A stretch of 64,000 nucleotides of DNA from Octopus vulgaris (lineage: Eukaryota), in NCBI GenBank assembly GCA_951406725.2, contig OX597818.1, positions 13,888,001-13,952,000 on the forward strand. Reading direction: 5' to 3'. Of this stretch, positions 1-44,097 are shown one piece after another. The notes under the pieces were generated by a model. That model did no database searches. It saw only the letters and a program-made list of their open reading frames with translations, and had not been told where the DNA came from. The number at the start of each line of letters is the position of its first letter. Positions within the stretch are counted from its first letter, which is position 1. The position numbers and the translations under genes were made by a program.

Positions 1-1418
1 AAGGTTCCGAGATGATACAAGCCCTGGACACTTTGCTTTTACATTTTTAGCAAACATTTCCCGAATATAGCTTAGACTGAGCGATGTTCAATATTTCCAT
101 ATACACACACACGCACACATACATACAAACACACATACTTATATAACCATTACCATATCCGATTGAGGAGTTATAATATATCTATGTCCTGCCTAATCAG
201 CCTGGATTTGGCTTTAATAGCATTGTCAATAGTATATCTAACAAGAATTCTTACCTCTCAGTTAATAAGCGTTCCTTTAGTAAACATGCCCTGTACTAAA
301 ACCTGATTCTCCAGAATAAAATATTTGTTAGAATTTCCTTATACCCAGTAGATTAAAAACAAAAGTAACACTTATTTTTCTCAGTTGACAATCTAAGCCT
401 ACCAGGCTTGTCTTTACCCATCAAAACACCGTCAACTTGAAACTGTATTCCCTTACAGCCAGTACTTACCCAGTATTACGGAAGGTGAATAATTTCATGT
501 TCTCCCGCGGTAGACTTCTCATCACCTCACTGCGTTTTAAGAACTCCAAGAGCTGAAAGCTGAGATCTAGTTTGCCCCATAATTCTTTCTCCAGTTTAAA
601 TCTTTTACCAAACTTATTTTTCAAAATCCTTATATTTAATTTATCATCAGATAATCTTTAATAAAAATTAAATAAAAATCTCGTATTCTACAACACCACA
701 TTTAGAATCAAGAATTACCTCTTCCAATAGTGAGGCTAAGTTGCCTTACTGTGGAACTTATGGTTTGCTCCCCTGAGTCCAACATTAACCCACCAGATAC
801 TAATACAAGGAACTTCAAACATAGCAACTAGTATCATTTAAACTTCGAATGACGTGTTAAGTTTAAGAGGTACAAGAACTGTAATCATATTATATTCCAA
901 CGCTAACTCTAATCTCCTGTAATCTCACTTGGAATGGTCCTTCAATTAGAATATAAGTTCAGAATCCCTATCTAATACTTGGATCTTCAGTTCAATTCAC
1001 TCAATCGCATGGGTGAGGCCTTGAACAAAGTTACATAGGAAAGTATAATTTGGATGAATATGTACAACTATTTTAAATTTAAATAAAATAAAAGGATATA
1101 GGTGCAACATCAAAAGACACTGGGGCACTTATTAAGCAGTAACACGTGTCAGATTGCAATTTTATAACAATAATGGCAGAAGATATATAATTCTCCATTC
1201 TTCTGTATGTTGTATATATATATATATATATATATATAATAATAATAAATATTAGGGAATAAATCCAAATTTACAGGGAAAAAATCAGATTTCGGATTAA
1301 ATCCAATTTTATAGTAAAATATTATAAAATATTATTAGAGACAAAACCACTATTTTGCAAAACAAACAAGGAAAGACTTAATCAATACATAAAATTTTAA
1401 TAAATAGTCAAAAAACCG

Positions 1419-1461
1419 CCACTACAATTGTTTCCTGTCTTGATCGACAATCTTCAGGTGG
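1419..1461 (-). ncRNA. Minimal type I hammerhead ribozyme (sense to the PLE)
   Basis: Reverse complement reads ccac CUGAAGA uuguc-gaucaa-gacag GAAAC AAUU GUA gugg. Stem I is ccac/gugg, stem II is uguc/gaca, stem III is the palindrome ACAAUUGU, and the cleavage triplet is GUA. Confidence 0.85.
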
Positions 1462-1627
1462 ACTTCCAATCTAAAATATCAATATTTTAAAATATAAAAA
1501 TAATAATTTTAAAATAATTAAAGTATTAATGAAAAAATATAAATATATAATCCATATATAACCTATATATAATCCATATATAATCAATATATAAACAATA
1601 TATAAACTAAAATAAACCTATCAACAA

Positions 1628-1715
1628 TTAAATATAAAATATAAAATATAAAATATAAAATATAAAATATAAAATATAAAATAAAAAATATAAAATATAA
1701 AATATAAAATATAAA
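1628..1715. repeat. 7-bp tandem repeat (ATAAAAT)n; inverted counterpart at ~6125-6230
   Basis: Read directly. The mirrored ORFs 1584..1772 and 6067..6276 differ by 21 nt, which equals 3 units. Confidence 0.85.
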
Positions 1716-1949
1716 ACAAAACAAAAAAATAATAATAATATAATAATAAACTATATATACACCCATACACATATAACTAATTATATATAACCATATCTAA
1801 CTACATACACTAAATCACACTCCTATATATATATCCCTATACATACACATAAAAACGTCTAGGCAACTATAAATAAATAAAATAGCTAAATACTTCAACA
1901 CAATACTTATTCATACTCTCACACACACACATACAACCCACATTCACGC

Positions 1950-3620
1950 TCTAGAAACGGACATCACTTAAAATTATGAACGGAGAAATGGAATAAATGG
2001 AATTAAAAATTATATTCACTTGGTAAAACGAACACTACTTAAAAATTATGAATGAAACAATGCAATAAAACAACAGACATCGCAAATAGACACAAATTAC
2101 TACGAATTCCTTAACAAACCTACCATGATAAACCAAAACTCATAAAAACATATAATGATAAAATCTCCCTTTACTAAACTCTATAACATACCTATATAGC
2201 AATCCCCCTAACCTAAACATTCACACACAAATACACACACGTAAACCACACACCCACGACATATACAAATACCCACACCACTTACACATACCTATACATA
2301 CAAATAAAACTCAACATATACACCAAAAACCCACTCAACCCCACACAGACAAATAAACACAAAAATTATGAATGGATTCTTTTATAAAACTACCATGATA
2401 AGCTAAAACTCACAAAAACATAAATGATAAAACCTCCCTTTACTAAACACTATAACATACTTATATAGCAATCCCTTTAACCTATACATTCACACACAAA
2501 TACACACACGTAAACCACACACCCATAACAAATACAAACACCCACCCCACTCACACACACCCGCAAGTACATATAAGCATCAACATATACACCAAACAAA
2601 ATTACTTTACCAAGGAACTTAACATATGTATAAAAAGTATAAACGCTCTGGAAACGAACATCTTATAAAATAATGAATGGAGAAATGGAATAAATGGAAT
2701 TAAAAATAATATTCACGTGGCAAAACGAACACCACTCAAAAATTATGAATGAAACAATGTAATAAAACAACCAACATCGAAAATAGACAAATTACCACGA
2801 ATTCCCTAAAAAAAAAAAAACCATGATAAACCAAAACTCTTAAAAACATATAACGATAAAATCTCCCTTTGCTAAACTCTATAACAAACCTATATAGCAA
2901 TCCCCCTAACCTAAACATTCACACACAAATACACACACGTAAACCACAGACCCACGACTTATACAAATACCCACCTCACTGACACATACCTATACTAACT
3001 TATACACCTCAATATACACCAAAAACCCACTCACTCCCCACACAGACAAATTAACACATACATCCCAAGACCTAAATAACAAACCCATATACACATTCAC
3101 ACACAAACACACACACACGCAAAACACACACACATAACAGATACATATACTCCCTCACATATACGCATATACATACTCACTAAACTCGATATATACAACA
3201 ATATTTACACACCCACACTCATACAGATAAATAAATTATACAACTAAAAACTCACACACAATCTCATATACATAAACACTCCATGAAAAACAACATTAAA
3301 TACATCGTAATTAACCAGAATATCAAAAATAACAATATGACATAAGGAGAAATAAAAAACATACTTACAAGTCAGTTTCAAATTATGATGTGAAATTAAA
3401 TTCTAAGCCGTTAAAAAAATCAAACCAAATTTACGTTACCATAGAAATAAACTTATGTATAAAAAGAATACGCGCCATGGAAAGTAAACGTCATTTAAAA
3501 TTATGAATGGAGAAATAGAATAAATGGAACTAAAAACTATATCCACGTGGCAAACCAACACTACTTAAAAAAAATTTATTATGAATGGATTCTTTAAAAA
3601 AACTACCATGATAAATTATT
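1950..3620. repeat. Modular, diverged tandem repeats inside the PLE 3' region
   Basis: Module 'gaaacg.acatc...atgaa.ggagaaatggaataaatggaattaaaaa' at ~1950, ~2646 and ~3478 (also ~5476). Module 'ccatgataaaccaaaactc...ctccctttactaaac...cacacacaaatacacacacgtaaaccac' at ~2121, ~2391 and ~2821. Confidence 0.8.
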
Positions 3621-5008
3621 ATATACATTTATGAGCTTTAGCTCATCTTAGCAGCTCTAACAAACAATTTGCAGTAACCCAAACCTATTCTCGATGCCTA
3701 CCTTACTACTACACTATTCCATTCCCAATTCCAATCAACGCTAGCCCACCACCCGGTTACAATTCCCATCTCCACTCATTCATTCACAATTTCAGCGACG
3801 TTCGCCTCCACAACGCTACGTATTAGCCTCAATATATACACCGGTGATGCGCTTTCACATCCGTGCGGATAGATGATAGTATACATTGAGTGTAGTGATG
3901 GGGCTCACTTTACTATACACATTTGTACCTGTGTAGTAGTCTCCATGTGTATATTCACGCACGGGTATAAATGCGGGGGGTACACGCGCACGGCATGTGC
4001 GTGTACCCCCTCACATGTACATATGCATGCTAATTGGGCTCAATATGTGCAACGGTGTAATCGCGCCCGCATACATGCAGATGGGCGAATTGCACAATCA
4101 AAATACGCACACATGTGTGTGTGCGTTCCTTGGTTGTGCAGTTCACCCATCTGGGTGTGAGTGGGTGTAAGCGTATTGCTGTGGATGTCGAGCTTGATAC
4201 GTATGTATATGAGTGTGTATTGGGGGGTTGTACGTATTTATTGTGTGCATGTGCTTCACGCACGTGCGTCCATGTATGGATGAATATATTGGGATTGCTA
4301 TGTGGGTGTAAATTGGGTATGGAGGGGGGAGTTTTGTCATTGTATGGGTGTGGGTTTCATTTGTGATGTTGGTTTGTTGGTGATTTTTGGTATGTTCTGT
4401 ATATTTGGGTTAGTTATGTATTATTCTAGTGTGTATAATTGTATACCTATATGATTGGTGTGAGTGGGATTACGCCCATTTTTGGGGATGTATGTGTTTA
4501 TTTGTCCGTGTGGTACGGGAGTGGCCATTTGGTGTATATGTTGAGGCTCACATACAATCCCAGGTACGCGCGAATGAAGTGGGCACTTATATTTGTTATG
4601 GATGTGTGTACTTTATTATAACAGGCAATACCCAAATAAAAACTGTCAATTCAACATACCAAATAAAAAACAAAAAACAAAGGGATCGTAAACATTCACA
4701 CATACATACAAAACTCAATAAATACACCACTAAATAACACCCATCAACATATAAATATATCCTCCAAAATACACATAACAAATAACAAATGCATAATAAA
4801 AATACATAATAAAATAAAATAAAAATAAAAAAATATATAAATAAAGAAAATAAAAAAATCTAATATAAATTATTAAAGTTTTAACATACCATAAACTGTT
4901 ATATTAATATACATTAAAAATGAACTAATTAAAACAAAGAAATAAAAAATATAATTATCTAAACTAATTTAAACTAAACTAAAGTAACCTAATAGGGAAC
5001 TATTAATG

Positions 5009-5357
5009 CTATTTATCATGAAACTTATTATATAGGTAAAGTAACTTATGTCTGCATTTTATTTTTCGCTCTTCACCAGTATTAAGTAAATTATCATACT
5101 TATAAAATAAAATTTCTTTAAACTCATTAGAGCATAAATAACAACAATTAGCTCCTATAGTATATGATTTAGTTTTACAAATTATTTCCCAAATTAAACT
5201 ATAATTAATATTTAGTGATTTAAGACTCCATATGTACTTACTAAGTCCGGTTGAGTTGATTAAGTTTTTATTTTTAAAAGAATTCATATGTTGTGCGATT
5301 CTTAGTTTTATTTTTGAGGAAGTAGAACCTATATAAACCGCTTTTGGGTAATTATTA
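5009..5357 (-). pseudogene. Penelope-type GIY-YIG endonuclease, C-terminal fragment
   Basis: Translation: VYIGSTSSKIKLRIAQHMNSFK...STGLSKYIWSLK...WEII...CYLCSNEFKEILF...LLN...KCRHK. It is collinear with the 27614-28063 endonuclease. Confidence 0.88.
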
Positions 5358-6398
5358 TTAAATACAAACACCCACCCCACTCACACACACCCGCAAGTAC
5401 ATATAAGCATCAACATATACACCAAACAAAATTACTTTACCAAGGAACTTAACATATGTATAAAAAGTATAAACGCTCTGGAAACGAACATCTTATAAAA
5501 TAATGAATGGAGAAATGGAATAAATGGAATTAAAAATAATATTCACGTGGCAAAACGAACACCACTCAAAAATTATGAATGAAACAATGTAATAAAACAA
5601 CCAACATCGAAAATAGACAAATTACCACGAATTCCCTAAAAAAAAAAAAACCATGATGAGTTTAGTAAAGGGAGATTTTATCATTATATATTTTTATGAG
5701 TTTTGGTTTATCATGGTAGGTTTGTTAAGGAATTCGTAGTAATTTGTGTCTATTTGCGATGTCTGTTGTTTTATTGCATTGTTTCATTCATAATTTTTAA
5801 GTAGTGTTCGTTTTACCAAGTGAATATAATTTTTAATTCCATTTATTCCATTTCTCCGTTCATAATTTTAAGTGATGTCCGTTTCTAGAGCGTGAATGTG
5901 GGTTGTATGTGTGTGTGTGAGAGTATGAATAAGTATTGTGTTGAAGTATTTAGCTATTTTATTTATTTATAGTTGCCTAAACGTTTTTATGTGTATGTAT
6001 AGGGATATATATATAGGAGTGTGATTTAGTGTATGTAGTTAGATATGGTTATATATAATTAGTTATATGTGTATGGGTGTATATATAGTTTATTATTATA
6101 TTATTATTATTTTTTTGTTTTGTTCTATATTTTATATTTTATATTTTATATTTTTTATTTTATATTTTATATTTTATATTTTATATTTTATATTTTATAT
6201 TTTATATTTTATATTTTATATTTTATATTTAATTGTTGATAGGTTTATTTTAGTTTATATATTGTTTATATATTGATTATATATGGATTATATATAGGTT
6301 ATATATGGATTATATATTTATATTTTTTCATTAATACTTTAATTATTTTAAAATTATTATTTTTATATTTTAAAATATTGATATTTTAGATTGGAAGT

Positions 6399-6441
6399 CC
6401 ACCTGAAGATTGTCGATCAAGACAGGAAACAATTGTAGTGG
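6399..6441 (+). ncRNA. Minimal type I hammerhead ribozyme (inverted arm copy)
   Basis: ccac(6399) CTGAAGA(6403-6409) ttgtcgatcaagacag GAAAC(6426-6430) AATT GTA(6435-6437) gtgg. Confidence 0.85.
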
Positions 6442-6650
6442 CGGTTTTTTTGACTATTTATTAAAATTTTATGTATTGATTAAGTCTTTCCTTGTTTGTT
6501 TTGCAAAATAGTGGTTTTGTCTCTAATAATATTTTATAATATTTTACTATAAAATATATATATATATATGATATGTGTTTGTGAATAAACACTTACATAC
6601 ACACATACACACATACATATATACATATATATATATATGTATATGCATAT

Positions 6651-14300: not shown

Positions 14301-16172
14301 AATGAAACAATCCTCCCGCGAAAATCAAATTAAATAAAATTTGAGATTTTTTTGCGGAGGGGTAAAAATGGTAGAAACAGGACATTAACGACAGTACAGA
14401 ATATAAGCAGTAAAAGACAGGACAAGGAGAATAACAGTAACACAAACAAGAAGGGCTGTTAAGCCGAACGAGATATAAATTTTTTAAGAACGGTATTTTT
14501 TTTTGAGAAGTATTTGCCAGTAGAACTTGAGGGTCCTAGAGATGACCGTATTACTGTTGATACATCCCAGGTAAATATCTTTTCCAGCTGGCTATCGACA
14601 TAACGTCTGTGACCGTAAAGTGTTTTCAAGGGAGGTCATCGTTCTCATCTCCAGCCATACTTTATACTCAAAGACCATGGTTTCTGGGTCATTACCCGTC
14701 CACAGTATGAGAAATCACTGGCTGTTGATGAAAGCTTTCTCCACCCACAAACACTATATATACTTTAAGCGACACACAATCGCTAATCTTGTATAGATTA
14801 AGACAACTTGTTTTAAGTCTCTCAGTGAAAGATATACAGTAACTGTACCGAATAGTGAAGTTTATTTGGGAACAGAATGTGGCGGTGCTATAGAGGACGA
14901 CGTTACTGTTGTGTTGGCCCCATGTAAAAATCTTTTTCAGAGTCTGTGTCCGTATAGTGTCTGCAAGAGAGGTCATCGCTCATATCTCCAGCCTTACGTG
15001 ATACACACAGACCATGGTTTACATATATGTATATACATATATATAAAATAAAATTTAAAATACACATTAAGTACAGTATATCACCAACGAACGAAAAACA
15101 CGTAAACACACGTGAGATAAGTACAGCACAAAATACCAAAAGATACAGAATAAGAACAGGACATCAACAACGCGTGAAAATTCGTAAACGCATACGAGAG
15201 ACAAGTACGGAACAAAATACCGAAAGAAGTCTAACTCCTCCTCAGTTATTGACTGTTTATTATTCCCAATTTCGAGCTTTCAACAAGATATGAAAACTTC
15301 ATAAGATAGCAGCATCCAGAAATTTTAAAATTATAAAATTTGTGGTGAGTTAGGGATTCAAACGAACAAAAAGCTACACTGTGGACGTACAGAGTAAACA
15401 ATCTCTCCTTTGCATTAATGAATACAAAAAAAAAAAATTAAAACAAGACCTTGAAATGTAATTATAATTCTTACTGGAAATAATGAAAAACAATCTCTGG
15501 CCTTCCTTGGATACAAAAATGCCTTTCTTTCCCCACCCAGATGGTCTCTAAAATGAGAAAAACAAATTATTGAATCAAGCAAGTTTGAGCACACGGGTAC
15601 AAAAACACACTTCCACCTCCCTCCGAAACCTTTCTCTTCTTTTTTTTCTTTCCTCTGCAAACTACCAAAACACCCCTACTTTCTTTTCTCTTCTTTATCT
15701 TCAATATCTCCCACTTTCTCCTCCTCGCTCATCTCTGCACCCACCTTACTAATTTGTCACCTTTCCCCCTCTCTCTCTCTCATTCTTTCTAAAACGTCAT
15801 CAATTTCATATTAAGAAAAGACCACGCAAACTTATCATAAACCATTTTCTTGATGAATACGATAATAGAAGGAAGCGCTGAAAATCTAAATGAAAAATGT
15901 ATAATCATAAATGAAAAATGTATAATCATCCAACATTCTGACAACCTTATTATTCTCAATAGACAATATCTATATATCATTTCAAAAGCTTTCTAAGTAT
16001 ATATACATACATATATATATATATGTATGTATGTATATATATATGTATATATATATGTATGTATGTATATTTTTATATTTATATGTTATTTTATTAATTA
16101 ATTAATTAATTAATTAATTAATTAATTTTTATTTATTTTTTAATATCAAAAGTATTAAAAGTTTAATATATT

Positions 16173-16717: not shown

Positions 16718-16988
16718 ACGAGAAAGAAGCAACAAGAATGGATTAGTCTTTAGTACAATTGTTTCATACAAAGACAGGCTTTATTACAAGTTGCAAAATT
16801 TTGTAATAAAGCCTGTCTTTGTATGAAACAATTGTACTAAAAACTAATCCATTCTTGTTGCTTCTTTCTCGTTTATAATCACCCCACATTACTGTATGGT
16901 TAACACCATATAGTTTTTCTGGTGCATCTAAGTTAAGTACCACATTCAAGTAAATTCATTGGAATTGACTTGAATCTTAATTGCTTTG

Positions 16989-16993
<5 letters not shown>
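16718..16993 (+). mobile_element. Minimal PLE fold-back insert, same family as 26245-30191
   Basis: 72-bp arms 16718-16789 / 16801-16872 and a tail 16873-16993 homologous to the reverse complement of 26245-26364 (the paired ORFs MNVVLNLDAPEKLYG / MNAVLNLDAPEKLYG show this). (TA)n on both sides. Keeps GAAACAATTGTA but not CUGAUGA. Confidence 0.9.
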
Positions 16994-19690: not shown

Positions 19691-21960
19691 TAATTTTTAC
19701 TTTTTTATTGCGCTCTCGCTTTTTTTTTCAGCTTTTATAGTGAAAAGTTAGTTAATTCTCCCTCTCCCAGTATATAACATGTACAAACATTCTGCAAACG
19801 TTAATGCAAGCTTTCAAGTTATGTTTGGTGTTTCGTTTTGTTCCTTTCATTGCCAATAGAAACACAAGAATAATACAAGTGAATATATTCTCATATCTAT
19901 GAATCCAATGCAAATATTTTCGTACACAAGTCTAATATTTATAAATGGCGTCACTAAATTCATCGATCGTTTTGCAATTATCATTAAAGATTAATTTATA
20001 TAACGTAAATGGCTGCAAATACACAAGCAACGTATCCTACTCGAATTAAGTAGTTTACAGTTTATATATATATATGCGCACATAGACACGCACACACACA
20101 CACATATAGACATATACGTAGTGAATTATTTACCTTCTCTTCTATTGTATCAACTTGTCCTAAGCTTGTTATTTCCCTATTCAGTTTAATTAGCAATTTT
20201 TAGGATATTGTTTCATCCCGTTACCATCATTTATAATGTCCTTTAATTTGCTTAAATTTCTAAACATGATTAAGTAATTTACATTTGTATAATGTAATAG
20301 TTACATCCCTTCATTCACTACCTTACACTATTCTTTACTTTTTGGTTTGTTTTGATTTTAATTGTCTCCTGTGACATATTTATTATAAAGTTTTACGTGA
20401 TTACTAAGAGTTTAGACCGCATTATTTGGACTTATATTCCTGTACAGTTGTCCTTTCAGTGAGTTTTTGCCTTCTCTCCTCCTCTATTATTTATCTGTAT
20501 TTTTCCCTTCTCTACACTCTTTTAGATTAATTTATGATCTATCTTGCCGTCTGAACTTCGTATCATTTATATCGTCGTTTATCTATTTATCTATTACAAA
20601 TTGTATTTTCTGTGGCTGTCCTTTTTTCTTTCTTCGCTCTTTTTATTTACTTTCTCGTATATGGTTTCATCTTTCCTCTACCTTCTCACCCACTTTCATA
20701 GATTTTTCTTACTCTCCCTTCCAAGCCTTTATTTTTGCTCCGTTACTGATACAGTTGCCTAGACACCCCAGCTTTTATCCTCATGTTTTACTCGTAGGGC
20801 TTTATATAAATCATCAGCAACTATTATGTTTATTATTTTTCTTGAAGGGAACAGGTGGCGACACGAAAAATATATATAACCATTATTTTGCGTTTATACA
20901 TATATACTGAATGCTTATTATTACTGCATGAATTTGATATCGAATCTATGAATTGTGAAGCACGCTCAAAGGTTTGTCCATTGACAGTTGGGTTATATTT
21001 CCACTTGACAAAATCCAGGAACATTGCAGTGTTAGTTGCGAACATAATCATGGATGAAAGAGACGGAACATGGATTTGGCATTTGACTTAATTCGGTACA
21101 ACGATAGCTTCGGCCCCTCCTGTAACTGTCCTTTATGGATGGGATGTTGTGCATCCATCAGGGCTTTCTGGGTCCCATCAGGTACATGCACACATAAAGT
21201 GGTGCTCCGATAAGTATATTGTGCTTTCACTGTCATGTTGATGTTTGCCCCGCTAGCACAGCAGGAAAACATCGATATGACTGCGATAACATACACTATT
21301 TAGCGGAAAATCACTTTAAATTTTTATGTTCCTGATGTGACCCAGCCAGCACTGATGAATACAACAGCAATCCATCCATAAAGTAAAGTTTCAGGTGGGG
21401 TCGAAACGATCCTCATACTGATTAAAGACAAATGCCGAAATATCTTACGTTTCTTTCATCGATTATTATATATACATATACATATATAATTATAATAATA
21501 AAGGTTTTTTGCAACAAGTTGCTTAACCACATACCGAAAATTTTAGAAATAGCAGCCAAAAGACTACTATTTCCTTTTACTACAAAAATACGTCTCCACA
21601 GACAACAATATTTGTAACTCACATATGGCAAAAGAAAGAAGAAAAATAATGTATTTCCCTCCAGAATTTTTACTACGTGAGTCACAAAAAATAGTACTGC
21701 CGAAAAAAAGATTCGTAATTTTGTCGTAGGGGAGTAAAATAGTCATTACAGATATAGGGTGAAATATAATTAATTTAATAAAATCAACAAATTTCGGTAT
21801 AAAAAAGATCCATATTCGGTAAAAATTTATAGAATTATATTAATAAGGGTTTTTTGCAACAAGTTGCTTAACCACATACCGAAAATTTTTAAAATAGCAG
21901 CCAAAACACTACTGTTTCCATATATATATATATAAATATATATAAACATACATATACAGA

Positions 21961-22002: not shown

Positions 22003-22006
<4 letters not shown>

Positions 22007-22556
22007 CGAAGAATAGGATATCTGACTCGTTAGTAAGAGCAGTTAAAACTCCAAGCCACCAATTGTTGTAATTACCTTAATCCTAGACCCTGCAAGGTTT
22101 CTGCAGACTTAAATACAGACTGAAATAAATTGCCGATTTTCTTCCAAAATTAGCCAAAAAACATTTTACCATTAATTAAATTCTGGAAGAAAATCGGCAA
22201 TTTATTTATTTAGTGCTGGTTGATTTCTGCATCTGCACGGTAAATTCGAAAAATTAGAACCTATAGACACGTGGCTGACTACTTATAGCTCCATGTCTAT
22301 GGATTTAGTCTTGGCAACCTACTGAGGACGCAGCGCCAGATATAGACTGAAATGATCTTGTTTCAGTCTGTATTTAAGTCTGCAGAAATATTGCAGGGCC
22401 TAGAATTAAGGTAAATTTTTTTTTTATTTTTCAATCACTTTCGGAACTACAGCGATGGGTGGCTTGGAGTTTTAACTGCTCTTTCTAGCGAGTCAGATAT
22501 CCTCTTCTTCGGGTATCCCTTTCGTGCTTGAAGATACACTGTATTCTTCTCTGAAT
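22003..22556 (+). mobile_element. Fold-back insert with nested inversions and a short tail (PLE-end-like)
   Basis: Inverted arms 22003-22125 / 22361-22515 (left arm has a ~30-nt deletion). Second inverted pair 22123-22151 / 22179-22207. Tail to ~22556. (TA)n on the left. Confidence 0.7.
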
Positions 22557-22639
22557 AATATATAGTCTATTGACTAATTTTTTTCTTTCTCGCTAGACCA
22601 CTGGTAACTAAGAATTTTTCGATGAATATTCTTGCCACC

Positions 22640-22780
22640 GGGCTTCTTTCAGTTCAGTTTCTGTCTACCAAATCCACTAGCAGGGCTTTTGTCGGACCGA
22701 AGCTATAGCAGAAGACAGTTGGCTAAGGTACCACGCAGTGGGACACAATCCGGAACCACGCGTTTGCTAAGCAAGCTACT
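22640..22780 (-). mobile_element. CORE-type tRNA SINE copy
   Basis: Reverse complement of the 22881/59876 family: cgggcttctttcagtt...tctaccaaatccac...ccacgcagtgggac...ccggaaccac. Confidence 0.8.
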
Positions 22781-22980: not shown

Positions 22981-23025
<45 letters not shown>

Positions 23026-25893: not shown

Positions 25894-26229
25894 AAATTAA
25901 ATAAGGGTAGAAATTGATAATTAAAACCAGTGGCCTAGCATATTCAAAAAATCCGAAGATTAAGACTCTTTTACATACAAAATTTAGAGGATTGACTACT
26001 AAAATTGGACAGCCTGTATGCTAGATATAGACGTCAAAATCGCCAGTTTCCACAGAGAATGTATTCTCAAGAAAACAATTCAGCAAAAAACCAAAGCGTA
26101 AAAATACGCTTTGGTTTTCGCTGAATTGTTTTCTTGAGAATACATTCTCTGTGGAAAATGGCGATTTTGACGTCTATATCTAGCATACAGGCTGTCCAAT
26201 TTTAGTGGTCAATCCACTAAATTTTGTAT
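25894..26229 (-). mobile_element. Fold-back insert: ~125-bp arms plus ~80-nt tail, between (TA)n tracts
   Basis: 25975-26100 is inverted to 26105-26229 around a 4-nt AAAA loop, with few mismatches. Tail is 25894-25974. Confidence 0.85.
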
Positions 26230-26393
26230 ATATATATATATATAGTAAAATCAATTAAGATTCAAGTGAGTTCTATTGAATTCACTTGAATGCTGTACTT
26301 AACTTAGATGCACCAGAAAAACTATATGGTATTAACCATACAATAATGTGGGGTGATTATAAACGAGAAAAAAGCAACAAGAAAGGATTAGTT

Positions 26394-26483
26394 TTTCAGT
26401 ACAATTGTTTCATACGAAGACAAGCTTTATTAAAAGCTGCAAATATTGCAGCAAATACAAGTGTCCCGTATCATCAGCCAAAA
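26394..26483 (-). ncRNA. Type I hammerhead with extended stem II (sense copy; lacks the G after CUGAUGA)
   Basis: Reverse complement: uuuugg CUGAUGA uacgggaca...ugucuucguau GAAAC AAUU GUA cugaaa. Confidence 0.75.
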
Positions 26484-27613
26484 CACATATGAGTTTTCCA
26501 AGCATCCTAGTGGGTGATGCTACACTCATGAAGTATCGGAGATAGTTCTATAAAAAGCAAATTTAGGTTGTAAGCAGACTTCCAAAGTTCTCTAATGATG
26601 TTGCACAGTCTTATAACAGGTTTTAAAAAAGCTTGTTAGCTTCACAGAGAAGATGAATCCATCCATAATGTAGATGCAAATTACCGGAGATATGAGGAGA
26701 TATTTCATACTCACAGACGATGAATCTATCCATGATTAATCCATAATAAGGTAGGTATAATTTCCTGATATATGATAAGATAATTGTCACACTTCTGTTC
26801 ATTTCACAAAACTGCTATGTTAGAATTATAATGGCTGAGGGAATTTTGTGGAGCATAGAAAAACCGCCCACATAGAGTATTCTGGGATAACTGAGAGGGA
26901 AGGGGTCGCAGGTACCCACCTACACAGAAAGATCTCTTTCTCTGGAGACAGACAGTCTGGCTTAGAATTTGCAGGAATCTAAGATTTATAAAGGAGAACA
27001 TTACTTTTGACCAGTATACAGCTGTTAATTGCCAATCCCACGGAGCTAAAGCAGATATAAGAATCTAAAGAGAACAAGGGAAGGGATAAAGGGGTCAAAG
27101 GCTATCACTAGAGGAAAATACATTAAGAGAATTAAGTGCAATACTAGAAAGGAGGCCATTTAATTAATTAATTTATTATTGTTACTGTTTATACAATGAC
27201 AGTCTGTAGGTCTATACTTAGAGGTCAATTACAAGTTGTGAGAGAATTGCTTATCATATTGAAATTTCTTATACTACTTTTAAGGGAGTAGCATTACTTA
27301 TTTAACTTTATAATAGAATTATGAAGTATTAGTAACTTATTTGATTTAAGTTGTGTTACCTAAATTAGATTAAAATTAGATTAACTTAAAATAACTATAT
27401 AGTCAATTAAACTTTTTTAGGCAACGTACAAATACTATAAATTTCTTTATGTTCCAAATCAGGTGCAGTTAGAAAGAAAGAAATAACCATAGTGTAAGAG
27501 CTCGCGGTTATCTATTTAAAAATATTAGAGTTTTGTTTTATTAGTAAAAGCAAGATAGATCTATCTCCATACGATTATTCTATACTATTTTTATTTAAAA
27601 TATTTTAGAGACT

Positions 27614-28063
27614 TCATTTAGCATGAATACAAAATTGACCCAGTTCTATACGGTTATTTAACAAATTCCTATTTTTTGTATGCATTAGAATTTCATACGT
27701 CTCCATGGAGCAGAGCTGGCAACCAACCCTGTTATTTCTATAAGGCATCGCTCTTCTAACTATTTTCCAATTAATGTTATATTTAATATTATTATTTTTG
27801 AGTTCCCAGATCTTACTTGAAAGTGTGGTGGTACCAGCTTTATGACGTAATTTAAAAGAGGAGATATGATTGCTAACTCTTTTCCTAAAATTTATAGTAC
27901 AACCTAAATAAAGAAATTTGCTATTCTCAATAGTTATGGTACATTTATAGATTACGTTATTTACACCGCACAGACCAGGTGCCGGGCATTTTGACCTAAT
28001 TCTACAATTACACCTAGGGGGAACATCTTCAGATGTTGAATTATTTATGGATAGATGTTCCAT
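27614..28063 (-). pseudogene. PLE GIY-YIG endonuclease domain
   Basis: CNCR..CP..C..NVIYKC...YLGCT.NFRKRVSNH.SSF...LSSKIWELK...WKIV...PY...CQLC..E...IL...LLN.R.E...C.H. Confidence 0.92.
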
Positions 28064-28804
28064 GTTCTTGCTATTCTGATTATCATGAGTATATTTATCG
28101 TTATTATAGTTAATGTTGTTATCTAAAGCAGTGTTATCATTTATCGATCCTTTTACACTATCATTTAGTTATATAGTCCTACCATGATTACCTACATTAT
28201 TGGTATTGTTACTATTATTGCTATTATTTGTATCCGAACGTATATTGTTGTTATAGATATCAATGTTGTCTTCATTCCCGGTATTTTCTCTATTAGCATT
28301 ACTCATATTATTAACATTATTACTCCTATTAATATTAATATTATTATTAGTTATTCCATGGTTATTGATTCTACCTATGTTTTGATAGTTACTATTGTTG
28401 CGGTTATTGCTTTTATTTTTTATAGTATTATTACAATTGTTATTGGTATTCATGTTGGTATAATTTTTATCTTTCCTGGCTAGCTTAATGTTATTATTAT
28501 TAATCTTAGCTATTAATATTAAAGTGGACATATTTGGGAGGGTTGAAAAAGAAATACTAACCGCTTTTTTAGAAATAATTCTATGATATCTATGAGAGGC
28601 TGGGAAATTTTTTCTAGAATTACTTTGAATTTGCTTTGTATATCCGATAGAATCGCTCTGGTCTATGTTTTTATATGTATGATTAGGCTTGTACGTTAGA
28701 TTTGTAGTTACCGTAAATCTATTTCTACTTTTATTTCGGGTGTGGTCTATATTGTTGTTTACGTGGTTACTAATACCTTCTTTATTAGGAATATGTAAGC
28801 TCTC

Positions 28805-29995
28805 CTAATCAATAAAGGTAATCTTTTGGTTGTATCCTGCCTTAGATAACGCCGCATTATAATGCTCAAAATTAGAGTTAAATATATCATTATTGGATGA
28901 TAATTTAGAGATTCTTAAGGAAATATTTCCGACCAAAGATTTAATTATATTTGGGGGATGATTGAATAATTTATTTACGTATCTCGTGATTTCACCTTCC
29001 TTTCTAAATGGGTAATGCAGCTTAGAGTTAAGGTATAATGTAATACCTAGGAAATTGACTATTTTAGTGCCAGGTTCATACGTTATGCTAAGGTTGAAAT
29101 CGTTAAAGAACTTATTAATTTTCTTTCTAATCCTTTCAATGCTAGATTTATTATTACTAGGGATAACAAACAGAGCATCATCCCTATATAGACAACCTTG
29201 TAATTCTGGGATATCCTTATTTATGCATTTTAATAGATACGCGCCTACCAAGTTAGTCACCTCAGCTGAATCACCGGAACCCATGGGTATATCGAAATTA
29301 TTAGGTGTATTAGTCCATAACTTTTCTTCAAATTCAATAAATGTTTTCTAGCTAATAACACAATGTCGATTTCCTCTCTAGATATGAGGGAGCGATTCTT
29401 AGCAAATATAAGTGATTTATTTAGCAAAATAGGGGAAATACTAGAGTAATAATTATTTATGTCGAACTGAATAAAGGACAGACTACTAGTATTAGTTAGA
29501 GAGTTAAACCATTTTAATACCTCATCGGTATTTAGCCATAGACTTAAGGGAAGAAAAGGGGTTATTTGGGGTAGAACAGTATCAAGGATAGATTTACTAA
29601 GCCGGCCAATGTCTGACTTAGTTGGACAAATAAGCCTTACCGAAGGGTTTTCCATGAAATTCCTTTTGTGGTCTTTAAGGTTGATTCTAGGTTTACACGG
29701 TTTTAGCGGCTCCGTTCTATCTGTTAAATTGTATCTTTCCATATTTTTTTCAAATTTTTCTTAGTAGTAATTTTATATTTGGAGTTGAGTTCCTTCTTGC
29801 TATAAAGAGTGTAATCTACTCTATACAGATTACCAGTTTTATCCGCTGGTACTAAGATTCCTTGTTTATTCCGGGTTGAATGAATAAAGTTACTGAGATG
29901 TTTGAGGTGAGGGTTGTATCTTAACGGGTGTTCCTTGAATTTAATATCTTCTATAAGATTCAGTAAATCTTTTTCGAAATTCTCTAGGAGTGGGT
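28805..29995 (-). pseudogene. PLE reverse transcriptase, frameshifted
   Basis: Motifs ADKTGN; LKDHKRNFMENPSVRLICP; FIQFDINNYYSSI; PMGSGDSAEVTNLVG; LYRDD; VNFLGITL; NHPP. They are split over several frames. Confidence 0.92.
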
Positions 29996-30072
29996 TTGCT
30001 TTTTATAGAGCTATCTCCGATATTTCATGAGTGTAGCCTCACCCACTAGAATGCTTGGAGAACTCATATGTG

Positions 30073-30163
30073 TTTTGGCTGATGAGTACGGGACACTTGT
30101 ATTTGCTGCAATATTTGCAGCTTTTAATAAAGCTTGTCTTCGTATGAAACAATCGTACTGAAA
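30073..30163 (+). ncRNA. Type I hammerhead with extended stem II (inverted arm copy)
   Basis: ttttgg CTGATGA(30079-30085) g-tacgggaca...gctgcaa-tat-ttgcagc...tgtcttcgta-t GAAAC(30146-30150) AATC GTA(30155-30157) ctgaaa. Confidence 0.75.
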
Positions 30164-30190
30164 AACTAATCCATCCTTGTTGCTTTTTTC

Positions 30191-30251
<61 letters not shown>

Positions 30252-30546: not shown

Positions 30547-32135
30547 CAGTGGAGGGAAATAAATATTCGTAAAAGACAAAATTCTTTATTTATTTAATTT
30601 CTAATGAACATAAATTGGATACATCTGTACTATATTTGCAGACAGATGCATAAACTAAGAATATGCAAAAGAAACTAATAAATTATAGTAATTAAGGAAT
30701 TTATATACAATCATAAATATTTAGGGGGGGGGAGTATTCATACAGAATAAATTTATGATTTTCTATGCCACAAAACACTGTTAAAATAATTTTTTTTTAC
30801 TAGAACTTTCTCGTTTGTTCCAATAATCTTATCAGTTGTCATTTCTAAGTGTCAAAACGCTAGCTTCTTCATTCAGCACTGAGACACCATAAAGTAGTAT
30901 TGTAATAATGGCGAAAAGTAAAGAACTCATAAATACAGTGAAAAACTTAAATACTGAACAATGGAAAGCAGGTAAAAGTTACAGGAAAATATCAGAGACC
31001 CTTTGTATTCCATATCTTCATTTATTCAAATATATAAGAAATTGGGAACTGTTGAAAACAGAATAAAATCCAGTGCACCATGCAAGATTTCCCCTAGATC
31101 TTTAAGAAGAATGAAGGGAAGAATCGAAAAAACGCAATGATCACCAGAAAGGAGTTGCAAGAAGATTTGTAAGGTTCAGGGACTAGTGTTACACTATGAA
31201 CAATCAGCAATGAACTTCATAGGAATGAACTGAAGTCACGCTCTTCTAGAAAAACTTCGCTGTTGACTAAAAGGCACAGAGATGCCCATTTAAAATTTGT
31301 TTATGAACATAAAGATAAACCTGATACATTCTGGGAAAATGTTCTGTGGACAGACGAGTCGAAAACTTAATTGTTTAGAAGAAATTCGCATAGCCATGTT
31401 TGGAGGAAAGATGGTACTGCCTATTCGCCGAAAAACACAATTCCTACCATAACGTTTGGAGGTGGCAACATCATGGTGTGGAGGTGTTTCGCTGCAAATG
31501 GTACTGGTAATTTACATGTGATAGATGGTAGAATGAATGCAGAGATGTACCAAAATACTTTGAACAATAATTTATGGGACTCTGTAGAAAAGCTCCAGCT
31601 TTGTGAAGGGTGGGTTTTACAACAGGATAACGACCCTAAGCACACGGCGAAGTCTACCAAAAAATGTATTGTCGATCACAATATAAAATTATTAGAATGG
31701 CCAAGCCAGTCACCTGACTTGAACCCCATTGAAAATTGTGGTGTTATTTGATAATTAAAATTCATTCAAGAGCCCCAACGTGTTTTCCAGATTTGAAGAA
31801 AATTTGTCAAGAAGAATGGGAAAAAATTCCTAAAGAAATATGCGAGTCATTGATTAAGAAGAGATTGGTTGAAGTGGAACTGAATAATGGTTATGCTACG
31901 AAGTATTAAATCAGAACTATCAGTTATGTTCTTTACGAATACTTTTTTCAACCCAAAATTTTTATAATTGAATATAAATTTAATAGTTACTATAATTTAT
32001 TAGTATCTTTTGCATATTCTTAGTTTATGCATGTGTATGCAAATATAGTTTTGGTGTATCCCATTTATGTTCATAAGAAATTAGATAAATAAAGAATTTT
32101 GACATTTACGAATATTTATTCCCCCCCCCCCACTG
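30547..32135 (+). mobile_element. Full-length, inactivated Tc1-family DNA transposon with ~200-bp TIRs and TA target duplication
   Basis: TA|CAGTGG ... CCACTG|TA. TIRs at ~30547-30745 and ~31925-32135. Internal transposase pseudogene. Confidence 0.95.
30908..31909 (+). pseudogene. Tc1 transposase, DD34E, with stops and frameshifts
   Basis: MAKSKEL start; VLWTDESK; FGGGNIMVW; QQDNDPKH...SPDLNPIE with 34 residues between D and E; GYATKY* end. Confidence 0.95.
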
Positions 32136-32397: not shown

Positions 32398-32402
<5 letters not shown>

Positions 32403-33022
32403 AACACATGAGGAATCTACTCGTGGGATTCAACACGCTAGAAAGAACAGCTAGCTTCCATAACCACAAAATTAGGGATAAAATTCGATAGGAATGAAGT
32501 GAAAAACTTTTTTTTAAATTTACCATCTAGACTATGTATTAGTCATAAAATACAGTGTACATTTAAATACATGAGGAATCTACTCGTGGGATTCAACACG
32601 AAGGACTGCGGCTTCGCAGTAGATTTTGAAAAGAATTAGAATGTATAAACAAGAGGCACATAGTTTGTTCGTCTCGTGTTTATATATTTAACCAAAGGTG
32701 TTCCTGCTAAGGACGATTTCAGCTAGTGAGTATATGTGATTTACTTGCTAAACTAAAATCAGAAACCAATTTGTCCAGGAAACTAGATGGTAAAATGTTT
32801 TTACTTTTTCATTTCGTCCCTGTCGAATTCTATCCCTAATTTTGTGGTTATGAAACCTAGCTGTTCTTTCTAGCGTGTTGAATCCCACGAGTAGATTCCT
32901 CATGTGTTTAAATGTACACTGTATTTTATGACTAATACATAGTGTTTGGACTAAATTTTTACCCGTTAGGCTACTGGAAATGAAAATTTTAATTAATTTC
33001 CATTTACCCTCGATATGATTAA
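32398..33022 (+). mobile_element. Fold-back insert with two stacked inverted pieces and a tail
   Basis: 32398-32530 is inverted to 32783-32913. 32531-32600 is inverted to 32874-32943. Unpaired end runs to ~33022. (TA)n on both sides. Confidence 0.8.
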
Positions 33023-34103: not shown

Positions 34104-34499
34104 ATATACATCGTTTTTGCATCCGGTTTGCATGATTCATAATGTGAATTCGTGTGTTAAAGCAAATTTATTGTATTAATGCTGTATTCTCTAACAAACT
34201 CACCGGTTCGATTTCCACTAATTTATCATTTATATTACTTCTTACAATATTTTCGTTGCTCTTGCAATTTTGTGAATGGATGTTGATGGAGTCAACATCC
34301 ATTGACAGAGTCACACTAACAGAAGCAACGAATTTTTGGGACGAAAAAATATATGAGTGGAAATCGAACTATTGAAGAATTTATGTAGTTTTTTTCTTGA
34401 TAAGCTCTAGTTTCCTATTTGAGGGTTTCTTAATTATGAAGAGAGCGTCGTTCCTGTCTAATCCACCTTTGACTTCCGAGAATTCGTCCTGTATGTATG

Positions 34500-34625
34500 A
34501 CAGCAAAGATTTGGATTTTCTATCGATATTGAAAAGTAATACAACGCTATCAAATACTTAGACACAACCTGCAACCTAACCACAGGACTCTATGAACCCT
34601 ACATGAAACAACACGAACCTACAAA
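34500..34625 (+). pseudogene. PLE RT fragment (motif 7 region)
   Basis: From 34549: IKYLDTTCNLTTGLYEPYMKQHEPT, comparable to VNFLGITLYLNSKLHYPFRK in the 28805 ORF. Confidence 0.65.
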
Positions 34626-39200: not shown

Positions 39201-39253
<53 letters not shown>

Positions 39254-39450: not shown

Positions 39451-39483
<33 letters not shown>

Positions 39484-40396: not shown

Positions 40397-40522
40397 TCAA
40401 GGTCGACTGTGTCTTTCATCTTTTCGGGGTCGATGAATTAAGTACCAGTTGCTTACTGGGGTCGATCACATCGACTGGCACCCTCCTCCAAAATTTCGGG
40501 CCATGTGCCTAGAATACAAAAG
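40397..40522 (+). mobile_element. Meta-type SINE 3' half
   Basis: aggtcgactgtgtctttcatcttttcggggtcgatgaattaagtaccagttg...aaatttcgggccatgtgcctaga. Confidence 0.75.
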
Positions 40523-42488
40523 AAGAGATAGTGGCTCTTCTTTAAAATATTTGCTTGTATATGCAGTGAGAGAAGGCTTCATTTCTAGAATGTTATCTGT
40601 TGATTGTATAATGCTTAATTTTTCAAGCAGTAATTAGATTACGCAAATTTACTTTGCCGTGGAATATATTTAGCTTCTTTAACCACTTTATGTTTTAGGG
40701 TGAAGGTACATTTGCTCACATAATATATAGAATATGCACAGTATCTTCATGTATATAAATTTTTATTGGTAAAAATTTCGGATACACGCATGTAGAAGTG
40801 TGTTTGTGTGTGCGCGTGTTTTTCAGGATTTATGTGTATATTAATCTCATAAATTCTATGACTTGATGACCAGTGGGTGAAATCGAGAAATATGAACTTT
40901 TCGTAAATTTACGAGAGATTACTTCATTAATGTAAAATATGTTAGCTCAAAAGCAGTTGTAATCAAAACTCAATAATAATGGTGATATTCAATTAATTGG
41001 TTATCGATAAACATGTTTGCTTGCAGATATTCATTGATGAAACGGATAAAATCAATAATTAAAAATCAATACACACTTAAGTATATGCACGCACGCATCA
41101 CTCCCTCCCTCTCTCTCTCTTTCTTTCTCTCTCTCTCTCTCTCGCTCTGTATATATATATATATGTGTGTATGTATGTATGTATGTATTCAGTTAAAGAT
41201 TATTAATATATGCTACTTATTTTATATGTGATAGATTTTGATGCAAAATTGATACACTTCATACTGTTCACATGTTGCATAATCTAGAGGATTATAAAAT
41301 ACAGTCAGCTACGAACAAGAATAATAGTTCAATTCGTTGTAAATGAATTCAAATACTTTTTTATTCATCGTTGTACATATTTTCTCAATAATTCATCAGT
41401 AACGTTAGGTGTTGCTTCTGGATTATTAAAGAAATTCATACTATATATATGTGGTTTAGAAGATACTTGTTATGAAGAATTGCAATATAATACTTATGTG
41501 TATTGAAGGCATGTACCCAAACAAAAGGAAGATAAATGTAAATTTTGTTACTGGAGATAAACATCTCATCTTCTAAATGCAACACATATAGTTCTAGGAT
41601 GTTTTCTCATCGAAAAAAAATTCATTGAACTTAGAATTTCAAAACTTTACAAGAGCTACTAGAAAAAACTTTAGTATGTTTCACCCATCCAAATGTCAAA
41701 ATTTCGTAACCTGATAAATTAATATAAATGCTGTGATAGATATTTTTATACAGCAACATACCATCATAAACGTGAATATTAAACTGTAAATAGAATATTC
41801 ATAGAATCAGAAGAATTATTTTGACTGATTTATAGAGAAGAAATTCGTAACAAATGCATATCTATGTCCATACAAATATATTTCTTTCCCATTTTATCTG
41901 TAAATTTCTCGGAAATATCAATCGTGACCTCATAGCAAATTCCTCGACTTTCAAAAACAGTGCATTAAAATTTTTATGAGTCATATTGCTTTCTTTTCAA
42001 GTCAGGAATATGTCGATTTAAGAGTATAACGTACAATGTTGACAAAATTGTTACGAATAAAGAGAATGTGGTGAAATATAAATAATGTTATGTTATATTT
42101 ATATTGCAGAAATTCTAAAGTTGTATGTAGTAACATTTTTAATAGTTAAAGAACACGATGCGAAATTTGTAATTATATCACGTGACTCATAGATTTGGAA
42201 ATCCAGGACATATATATTACAGTCAGGAAAGAAAAAGAATATAAAAAATGAAAATGTGGACAGAATGTCATTGTGTTGCCTGAGTCATACACAGTGGGGA
42301 TAACTATTAAAGACATTTTAATTTATGTTTTTTCTATGTGAGTAATGTTGTTTTTGTACCTCTTATCTTTTACTTGTTTCAGTCATTAGACTGCGCCCAT
42401 GCTGCACCCACCTTATCATTATTTTTATGTTAGTAATGGTAATAATACTTTATTAAATTTATATACATACATGCATACATACATATAT

Positions 42489-42526
<38 letters not shown>

Positions 42527-42674
42527 TATACATACATATATATACACATATATACGTATACATATATATGTATATATGTATATATGTATATATATATATG
42601 TGTGTGTGTGTGAATGTATGTGTATTTATATATATATATATATATATATGTGTGTGAGTATGTGTGTATGTACA

Positions 42675-44097
42675 TAATTGTTAAAGATGACAACAAACGT
42701 TAAGTCAAGACAAATATCTCAAGTCATATACGTTATTATTATTGGAAAAATTCAGTCCTACAGCTCTCTCTGGGATATCCCAGAGAATGGGATATTCCGT
42801 TATTGGGGAAAAATAAGGAAAATGAAAAGAGTATAGAGTAATGAAATTACGATACATAGGACAGAAGACATTGAATTAGGAGATGGAGAAAGAAAGAAAA
42901 AAGACATAAATGTTCACACTTCAACTTTCTGATCATGTAGAAGTAAGTCCGTAACTCCTTAGGTGCAATCCTGCATGTCGGTTAAATTCCTAATAGTGTA
43001 AATATCCAGAAATGGATGCGAACGTATCAACGTTCAATAACAGAATGGTATCGGCGGTGGTTATTAAATGGAAAGAAGAAAGAAAAATAAATATATAAAA
43101 TGAGAGGCAGAGAGAGTGAGGGAGGAAATCAAGGATTGGTACTAAGGAGAAAATAAGGATATAGTGTATAAGAATATAGTATATATAAAAATAGATATAG
43201 AAGGGTAAATAAGGTGAGAGGAGGAGAAGTTAAAGGGAGATAATTTTTTAAAAAACTACAAAATAGTAAAATGAAAGGTATTCAAAGAGAATACTGGGTG
43301 CCGGCGGAATTCTTCTAGTCTGTACCCACTATTCGCTTTGAATTCCTTTCTTTTACCATTTTAAAAAATTATATTCCTTTAACTTCTTCTCCTCCCTTCT
43401 TATTTACCCTTATATATTTATTTCTTTATTTATCTTCTTGGTTATTCTGATAGACTACGACCTTATATACCTTATTTTATTCTTAGTGCCAGTTCTTAAT
43501 TTCCTCCCTCACTCTCTCTATGTCACTTTCTATTTATATATTTTTCTTTCTTCTTGCAATTTAATAGCCACATCCTCTGCCATTCTGCTACTGAAAGTTG
43601 ATACGTTCGTGTCTATTTCTGGAAAGTTACACTATTAGGACTTCATCCTACGTGGATTTACACAGGATTACTGCACATAAGTCCTACTTCTACATGATCG
43701 GGAAGTTGAGATGTGTGTACTTTTATGCTTCTTTTATCTTCTCTTTCTTCTTCTCCTTATTCCTTTTCTCCTGCCCTCTGTGTCGTCATTTCATTACTCT
43801 TTACCATTCTCCTTCTCCCTTTTTGTCTCCGATGACGGAATAACCCATACACCTGCCATATCCCAGAGAGAGGTGTAAAACTGAAATTTTCCAATAATAG
43901 CAACGTATATTACTTGAGATATTTACTTGCCTTAACATTTCTTGACCTCTTTAACAATTATATATCCGCTACATCGGAAATCTACACTGGCTTTAAAACT
44001 ACTGTCGCGGCTATAGCCTTGGAACCCTTGCAATTCGTTACAGAATGTATTAGCGTACGTAGTTGTTTAGCCCACCTGTGAAATAAACCCACGTACT
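42675..44097 (+). mobile_element. Old, diverged large fold-back (~630-bp arms) with tail and hammerhead relic
   Basis: 42675-~43300 is inverted to ~43322-43961 (e.g. ataattgttaaag/ctttaacaattat; atatctcaagtcatatacgtt/aacgtatattacttgagatat). Tail runs to ~44097. Relic 'tccgatgacggaata...atatcccagagagaggtgta' at ~43826-43878. Confidence 0.75.

What the first reader, a model, noticed from the sequence alone, without database searches (positions are those of the whole stretch)
1239..44097. Recurrent 'fold-back + unpaired tail' PLE insertion architecture in (TA)n microsatellites, at least 7 times in 43 kb
Seen: seven inserts from about six unrelated sequence families share one layout (1239-6554, 16718-16993, 22003-22556, 25894-26229, 26245-30191, 32398-33022, 42675-44097). 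Each has an inverted copy of its end that stops ~40-135 nt short of the true terminus, and most sit between TA tracts. Two include GIY-YIG/RT coding sequence and four carry whole or partial hammerhead motifs. Established: PLEs can carry an inverted terminal repeat plus a tail, and minimal hammerheads. Inference: this is a multi-family, microsatellite-targeted retrotransposition system in which first-strand cDNA snaps back or switches template. It would seed the genome with long dsRNA-forming palindromes. The density and the size range (0.28-5.3 kb) make it look like a main genome-shaping process here.
Basis: partly seen in the sequence, partly recalled or inferred. Interest (0 to 1): 0.82.

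Follow-up and report, generated by a model that had tools for sequence, protein, structure and literature searches.

The report
Fold-back Penelope retroelement insertions in octopus
These hairpin-shaped DNA inserts are real and are the already described footprints of Penelope-like jumping genes in TA repeats of a likely octopus genome, with one modest twist: their one-sided tails are 67-136 bases long, not the published 30-40.

Summary
Real but mostly known. All seven inverted-repeat units exist, and an eighth (21044-21469) was missed. Arms differ by 0.3-23%, which argues against assembly artefacts. Six of seven arm ends touch (TA)n (background 6%). The two coding units are Hydra-clade Penelope-like elements (DKT, CxCx5C, no CCHH), a clade already listed for octopus with (TA)n targets. 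The inverted 5'-truncated copy, one-sided tail, hammerheads, self-priming idea and siRNA from the arms are all published. The scan also noted similar fold-backs in two shark-type genomes. Corrections: about five family groups, not six unrelated ones. Unit 3 ends near 22640, so tails are 67-136 nt, all above the published 30-40 bp, and five of seven are confirmed as element sequence by a related copy. 'Main genome-shaping process' is overstated: PLEs are 6.8% of O. vulgaris. Not found in my searches: the long tails, ends falling on element-encoded TA motifs (P about 0.009 here, 0.0007 in three foreign loci), and Asn-rich RT-EN linkers in octopods. The likely mechanism is TA-primed reverse transcription, then cDNA snap-back, with dual priming as the main rival. 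Independent reads were not examined.

The parts
1239..6555 (-). E1: young 5'-truncated Hydra-type PLE. Tail 1239-1305 (67 nt), 3' arm 1306-2181, long repeat-rich 3' region, GIY-YIG fragment, 298-nt exact internal duplicate (5360-5657 = 2530-2827), inverted arm 5658-6555
   Evidence: 3 substitutions in 876 nt of arm
1419..1461 (-). Type I hammerhead motif of E1; its mirror copy is at 6399-6441 on +
5009..5380 (-). GIY-YIG endonuclease fragment of E1, cut off inside the N-terminal motif; CxxC..E and CxH present
   Evidence: Pfam PF01541 E 7.9e-5; alignment
16718..16993 (+). E2: 276-nt hairpin copy of the E5 family's 3' end. Tail 16878-16993 (116 nt); apex inside the family's hammerhead stem II hairpin
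21044..21469 (.).
22003..22640 (+). E3: fold-back with about 150 nt missing from the inverted arm. True 3' end about 22640, tail about 124 nt, abutting a SINE-like repeat
25894..26229 (-). E4: hairpin with a 4-nt loop and a 78-nt tail. No hammerhead, no coding sequence, no relative in the window; PLE identity rests on layout alone
26245..30191 (-). E5: near-full-length broken Hydra-clade PLE. Tail 26245-26365 (121 nt), 3' arm 26366-26561, inverted arm 29995-30191; hammerhead with a 59-60-nt stem II in both arms
27614..29993 (-). E5 coding region, broken by frameshifts and in-frame stops: DKT motif, RT, Asn-rich linker (175 aa, 35% N), CxCx5C, GIY-YIG with CxxC and CxH
32400..33022 (+). E6: two tandem inverted copies ending at different points (tails about 106-110 and 79 nt), then the direct copy with a hammerhead carrying one core mismatch
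42675..44097 (+). E7: old 630-nt-arm hairpin with a 136-nt tail and a degenerate hammerhead
57360..57875 (-). Solo related PLE 3' end without an inverted arm; ends at the position homologous to E7's tail end and confirms that tail as element sequence
   Evidence: tail-only score 66 against a shuffle maximum of 47 in 300

Best explanation
These are 5'-truncated insertions of several Penelope-like retroelement families (the two coding ones Hydra-clade) in (TA)n tracts, and the inverted arm likely forms when the new cDNA folds back and copies itself. Shown: layout, RT and GIY-YIG remnants, hammerhead motifs pointing outwards in both arms, TA flanks, tails of 67-136 nt, and short TA-like overlaps at the arm ends. 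Inferred steps: (1) the GIY-YIG nuclease nicks (TA)n. (2) The freed TA end pairs with a UA-rich motif downstream of the hammerhead and primes cDNA; this is the long, tailed end. (3) The cDNA stops early and self-primes, mostly across a small loop and sometimes far back. (4) The returning strand is joined to the other target end at a second TA-like motif; this is the short end. The tail is the distance between the two sites.
For: Layout in 7 of 7 units plus an eighth. Inner ends within 4-27 nt in 5 of 8 units, 53 nt in E1 via a paralogous repeat, 273 and 3433 nt in E6 and E5; 165-860 nt in 3 of 73 foreign Hydra-like loci. E2's apex lies in a hairpin encoded by the family itself. E2 and E5 share the tail end within 2 nt and the arm end within 3 nt. 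TA-like overlap at arm ends sums to 14 against 5.6 expected, P 0.009 (6 units, E5 left out as same family as E2). In the 3 foreign loci where the uninterrupted template is visible it sums to 16 against 3.2, P 0.0007. Published: inverted copy plus tail, self-priming inferred from palindromic junctions, Hydra clade in (TA)n.
Against: In vitro, an anole PLE nicks and extends both target strands from two start sites without homology to the target, which favours dual priming. E5 and E6 have no hairpin at the inner junction. In E2 the loop belongs to the short-end strand, so snap-back needs a later 6-7-nt slippage deletion. E6 has two different short ends, and E3's maps about 20 nt from E6's nearer one, so the short site is not strictly fixed. 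The TA overlaps in the window are short (1-3 nt) and I read them by eye. E4 has no independent PLE mark. No genome or reads were examined.
Confidence: 0.58

Rival explanations
1. Same elements, but made by dual target priming: a dimeric RT-EN primes one cDNA from each target strand at two start sites, and the two cDNAs are joined head to head by microhomology.
For: PAc cleaves and extends both strands, and its tail equals the distance between two RT start sites. Both arms point outwards, both ends show TA overlap, and E2's loop is continuous with the short-end strand. E5 and E6 lack a junction hairpin.
Against: Independent cDNAs would not be expected to stop within 30 nt of each other in 5 of 8 units with arms of 77-630 nt, unless they anneal at template hairpins.
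Confidence: 0.3
2. The short units (E2, E3, E4, E6, E7, eighth) are non-autonomous fold-back mini-elements that spread as units in their own right.
For: Small size, terminal inverted repeats, hammerheads; no coding sequence in six units.
Against: E2 is simply the truncated end of the E5 family. Related copies differ in apex and length, and solo non-inverted copies of the E7 group exist. No two units share an apex.
Confidence: 0.08
3. The palindromes are assembly or amplification fold-back artefacts.
For: E1's arms are 99.7% identical and it holds a 298-nt exact duplicate. No independent reads were examined.
Against: The other seven units have 2.6-23% arm divergence. Arm ends sit at family-specific positions beside (TA)n. 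An exact 298-nt copy is expected at E1's age (P 0.36).
Confidence: 0.04

Closest known systems
[quoted passage not shown] 2021, PMC8557442), incl. Hydra-1_Obim and Penelope-13_HM
   Same: DKT motif, CxCx5C linker, no CCHH, CxxC and CxH around the conserved E and N, type I hammerhead, (TA)n targets; an inverted 5'-truncated copy is noted for Penelope-13_HM; octopus already listed as a host.
   Different: Published Hydra elements are generally under 3 kb. E5 is 3.75 kb without its 5' end, with an Asn-rich linker and a 1.4-kb 3' region; E1's 3' region is about 3.8 kb. Hammerhead stem II plus loop is 44-60 nt in most units here, against short stems in the published table. E5 is a different family from Hydra-1_Obim (compared by eye only).
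Canonical PLE insertion unit: pLTR, adjacent inverted 5'-truncated copy, one-sided tail (PMC8557442 fig. 2 legend; PMC3846280; PMC2377424)
   Same: Head-to-head inverted copy, tail on one side only, heavy 5' truncation, microsatellite bias, no discernible target duplication.
   Different: Tail published as 30-40 bp (31 in A. vaga, 34 in D. virilis); here 67-136 nt in 7 of 7 units. No upstream direct pLTR is seen in E1 or E5.
Poseidon of Anolis carolinensis in vitro (Frangieh et al. 2024, PMC11167929)
   Same: Two alternative 3' ends, AT-rich target, hammerhead upstream of the ends.
   Different: There, RT starts inside the ORF without homology to the cut DNA. Here the ends fall on TA-like motifs, and in three foreign loci they lie upstream of the start codon (ATG at +151 to +187 from the hammerhead site).
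Asn-rich inserts in Adineta vaga Penelope ORFs (PMC3846280)
   Same: Long N-rich insert between RT and EN.
   Different: Here in a different clade and host group: octopod Hydra-type elements.
Non-LTR retrozymes (bioRxiv 10.64898/2026.07.22.740005) and opposite-strand minimal hammerhead pairs in Schistosoma (PMC4209133)
   Same: PLE-derived, type I hammerhead, non-coding; opposite-strand pairs 100-700 bp apart match the short fold-backs.
   Different: Retrozymes are head-to-tail tandems; these units are inverted.

Membership tests
EN+ Penelope-like element | RT followed by C-terminal GIY-YIG endonuclease | tested here: met
   E5: RVT_1 E 0.003 and GIY-YIG E 0.004, both below Pfam cut-offs, but tblastn to P0002 E 1e-36. 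E1 has the EN only. The six short units have no coding sequence.
EN+ Penelope-like element | Inverted 5'-truncated copy at the 5' end | tested here: met
   7 of 7 units plus an eighth
EN+ Penelope-like element | One-sided tail | tested here: met
   7 of 7; confirmed as element sequence by a related copy for E2, E5, E3, E6, E7; single-copy for E1 and E4
EN+ Penelope-like element | Tail length of 30-40 bp as published | tested here: not met
   67-136 nt in 7 of 7; a typical value, not a clade-defining one
EN+ Penelope-like element | Type I hammerhead in the terminal repeat | tested here: met
   Descriptor hits in E1, E5, E6; partial or degenerate by eye in E2, E3, E7 and the eighth; absent in E4; Rfam negative; lowest-energy folds mostly do not give the hammerhead fold
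EN+ Penelope-like element | Partial tandem forming an upstream direct pLTR | tested here: not met
   None in E1 or E5, both 5'-truncated; optional in truncated copies
EN+ Penelope-like element | Hammerhead cleavage and retrotransposition activity | not testable with these tools
   Needs experiments
Hydra clade | DKT in place of DKG | tested here: met
   E5
Hydra clade | CxCx5C linker before the EN | tested here: met
   E5; E1 is truncated downstream of it
Hydra clade | CCHH absent; CxxC and CxH flanking conserved E and N | tested here: met
   E5 and E1 in the alignment
Hydra clade | N-terminal RWK motif | tested here: inconclusive
   E5 is truncated downstream of it; present in several homologues
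Hydra clade | (TA)n insertion preference | tested here: met
Hydra clade | Falls in the Hydra RT clade in a tree with reference elements | not tested
   Reference proteins were only seen, cut short, in a supplement; compared by eye
Neptune clade | CX2-5CxxC linker and CCHH motif | tested here: not met
   E5 has CxCx5C and one cysteine in the GIY-YIG core
Naiad clade | N-terminal EN, no canonical hammerhead | tested here: not met
   EN is C-terminal in E5; hammerheads present

The most novel reading that the evidence does not exclude
Hydra-clade PLEs integrate by base-pairing the cut (TA)n target to two element-encoded UA motifs downstream of the hammerhead. The spacing of those motifs sets a family-specific tail of 65-140 nt, and a cDNA snap-back links the two ends. 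That would be a homology-primed route unlike the only PLE studied in vitro, and each insert would carry an arm-divergence clock like an LTR pair.
Probability: 0.3. Interest if true: 0.55.

Novelty: new member of a known kind. Interest (0 to 1): 0.28.

Why it matters
How PLEs make their inverted arm and tail is an open question named in the literature. A genome with many families and insertions of all ages offers thousands of natural products to separate snap-back from dual priming by counting junctions. Longer tails and TA-matched ends would change how Hydra-clade boundaries are curated. Arm divergence could date single insertions. The short units could be mis-called as MITEs or microRNA hairpins: Rfam gave weak, sub-threshold miRNA hits on E2, E3 and E4.

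Tried and rejected
No whole genome is held for this window, so there were no genome-wide counts. The run search listed 24 runs, 20 holding part of a 9.9-kb stretch, all as short-read contigs; no RNA holder was listed. No reads or contigs were laid, so presence in independent data, empty sites and family-wide ends stay open. A family motif scan of metagenome contigs found 0 matches. Of 73 foreign Hydra-like loci, 22 hold some inverted repeat and 21 a sense hammerhead, but none gave a measurable arm-plus-tail pair. I first called the clade Neptune and dropped that after reading the motif definitions. Published Hydra consensus ends lie 25-148 nt past the hammerhead in 23 of 24 families (one at 350), in two loose groups. 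E2/E5's two ends (28, 149) fit this, but E1, E3, E6 and E7 do not, so it is not used as support. My first microhomology test (P 0.002 and 8e-5) ignored forward matches and was replaced. An older nested palindrome inside E1 was suspected; it gave only weak, composition-driven matches. The inverted pair 49204-49608 / 57560-57875 points inwards and was read as two separate insertions.
Full report
Observation. A self-comparison of the window finds all seven inverted-repeat units at the stated places. Arm alignments give substitution rates of 0.3% (E1), 2.6% (E2), 3.9% (E4), 4.1% (E5), 7% (E3), 8% (E6) and 16% (E7). With simple repeats masked, five shuffled windows gave no inverted hit. The real window also showed an eighth unit at 21044-21469 (23%), a Tc1-type TIR pair and a 68-bp palindrome. 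The spread of arm divergence argues against artefacts for all units but E1. I could not examine a genome or independent reads.

Host and clade. The closest proteins to E5's RT are from Octopus sinensis (82-86%) and O. bimaculoides (71%), so the host is likely an Octopus; the species is not established. E5 carries DKT, RT, a CxCx5C linker and a GIY-YIG domain with CxxC and CxH but no CCHH; E1's nuclease fragment aligns with it. These are the diagnostic motifs of the Hydra clade (PMC8557442 section 11). The supplement lists (TA)n targets for nearly all Hydra families, an octopus member, and a family with an inverted 5'-truncated copy. Five more PLE-like coding remnants lie elsewhere in the window. 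The six short units have no coding sequence. E2 is tied to E5 by about 90% identity; E3, E6, E7 and the eighth rest on hammerhead motifs and layout; E4 rests on layout alone.

Families reduce to about five groups: E2/E5, E3/E6, E7 with two solo copies, E1, E4. E3 continues to about 22640 by homology with E6's tail (score 87.5 against a shuffle maximum of 45), so its tail is about 124 nt. E7's 136-nt tail aligns end to end with the terminus of a solo copy at 57360-57875. Tails are thus 67, 116, 124, 78, 121, 79 or 106-110, and 136 nt. Within the one family seen twice, both ends agree within 2-3 nt. E6 has two short ends 27-31 nt apart, so the short end is not strictly fixed. Hammerheads: Rfam found none; a descriptor scan found five in E1, E5 and E6 among eight hits, with four hits in total over ten shuffles. 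The rest were read by eye. In each case the motif points outwards in both arms.

Mechanism. Shown: both arms point outwards, one carries the tail, and inner ends lie 4, 11, 14, 24 and 27 nt apart in five of eight units, 53 nt apart in E1 (through a paralogous repeat), and 273 and 3433 nt apart in E6 and E5. Three of 73 foreign Hydra-like contigs show an inverted ORF-internal copy at the 5' truncation, with offsets of 165-860 nt. E2's apex is in a hairpin that the family itself encodes. Arm ends overlap the TA tract more than chance predicts (sum 14 against 5.6, P 0.009, six units). In the three foreign loci where an upstream tandem copy shows the uninterrupted template, the 3' end falls on an internal TATA-like run of 4, 7 and 5 nt (P 0.0007) and lies upstream of the start codon. 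Inferred: the nuclease nicks (TA)n, the cut end pairs with a UA motif and primes cDNA, the cDNA stops and self-primes, and the returning strand is joined at a second TA-like motif. I give this 0.58. Dual priming from both target strands gets 0.30: it is what the anole enzyme suggests, and E2, E5 and E6 fit it equally well. Using the calibration JC 0.09 = 25 My quoted in PMC13282606, arms date from about 0.5 to 38 My. The rate is borrowed, and conversion between arms would make these underestimates.

What is known. The inverted 5'-truncated copy, the one-sided 30-40-bp tail and the (TA)n bias are stated in PMC8557442 (passages, sections 11-12, part of a cut supplement). Self-priming inferred from palindromic junctions, a 31-bp tail and Asn-rich inserts are in PMC3846280 (parts 1-4 of 5). 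The tail as the distance between two RT start sites is in PMC11167929 (parts 1-2 of 4). Opposite-strand hammerhead pairs 100-700 bp apart are in PMC4209133 (parts 1-2 of 4). siRNAs matching Penelope inverted regions are in PMC3681739 (passages). A 34-bp repeat and large inverted termini are in PMC2377424 (passages). Curation advice on inverted pLTRs is in PMC8969392 (passages). Retrozymes: bioRxiv 10.64898/2026.07.22.740005 (part 1 of 5). PLEs make up 6.83% of O. vulgaris in 190 families, below LINEs and SINEs (PMC13282606 part 1 of 3, passages, supplement search). Two earlier scan notes describe the same layout in shark-type genomes; I did not check them.

What I did not find in print. Nine searches (listings only, apart from the papers above) gave no report of tails above 40 nt, of TA-matched ends in Hydra elements, or of Asn-rich linkers in octopod PLEs. 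The library lacks most subscription papers, including Arkhipova 2006, and the Craig supplement was cut, so this is weak evidence. On the linker: E5 spans 392 codons from the RT catalytic motif to CxCx5C, against 214-245 in 28 of 37 homologues that hold both; nine are longer. Eight of 164 proteins have a window of at least 30% Asn; four are named as octopod, and four are unnamed or were not looked up.

Consequences. Units E2, E3, E4 and E6 would fold into perfect helices of 32-57 bp if transcribed through; transcription was not shown. The eight units cover 20% of the window but none lies in the last 20 kb.

Verdict. A real, well-populated example of a known insertion layout from a known clade, with three modest additions: long tails, TA-matched ends and Asn-rich linkers. 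Interest 0.28.

Noticed in passing
window 28169-28804 and 27614-28168 (-); P0001, P0017, P0018, P0021: Asn-rich expansions between RT and EN in octopod Hydra-type PLEs; an Argonauta protein keeps an open frame through both inserts into the EN.
   Followed up: partly
window 46747-47141 and 48244-48638: 395-nt direct repeat, 99.7% identical, flanking a decayed Hydra-type EN remnant preceded by an (AAT)n run; recent duplication or assembly slip.
   Followed up: no
window 46579-46646: Near-perfect 68-bp palindrome without loop, TA flank or hammerhead.
   Followed up: no
window 30551-32127: Tc1/mariner-type DNA transposon with terminal inverted repeats and a DDE_3 fragment (E 1.9e-9), between E5 and E6.
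   Followed up: partly
window 14605-15020 (-): Head-to-tail pair of hammerhead-bearing repeats without inversion: partial tandem or retrozyme-like.
   Followed up: partly
window 49204-49608 (+) and 57360-57875 (-): Two solo copies of an E7-related family; one may stop near the short site, the other reaches the long site.
   Followed up: partly
window 654-737, 34297-34617, 55541-55759, 58593-58975: Further decayed PLE-like RT or EN remnants found by tblastn.
   Followed up: no
window 44221 (+), 14246 (-), 32304 (-), 52039 (-): Further hammerhead-core-like motifs in repeats next to microsatellites, without inverted arms.
   Followed up: no
window 26227-26244; L010:2444-2610; L020:2605-2988: Different PLE ends pile up on one TA tract (E4 and E5 share one), also in foreign loci.
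   Followed up: partly
window 1946-3614 and 3620-4620: E1's 3' region holds decayed tandem repeats and a GC-richer middle with switched strand composition.
   Followed up: partly
window 18500-19709, 40400-40524, 56597-57076, 62365-62856; 22636-22981, 56285-56459, 59856-60038: Two dispersed SINE-like repeat families; one copy abuts the true end of E3.
   Followed up: no
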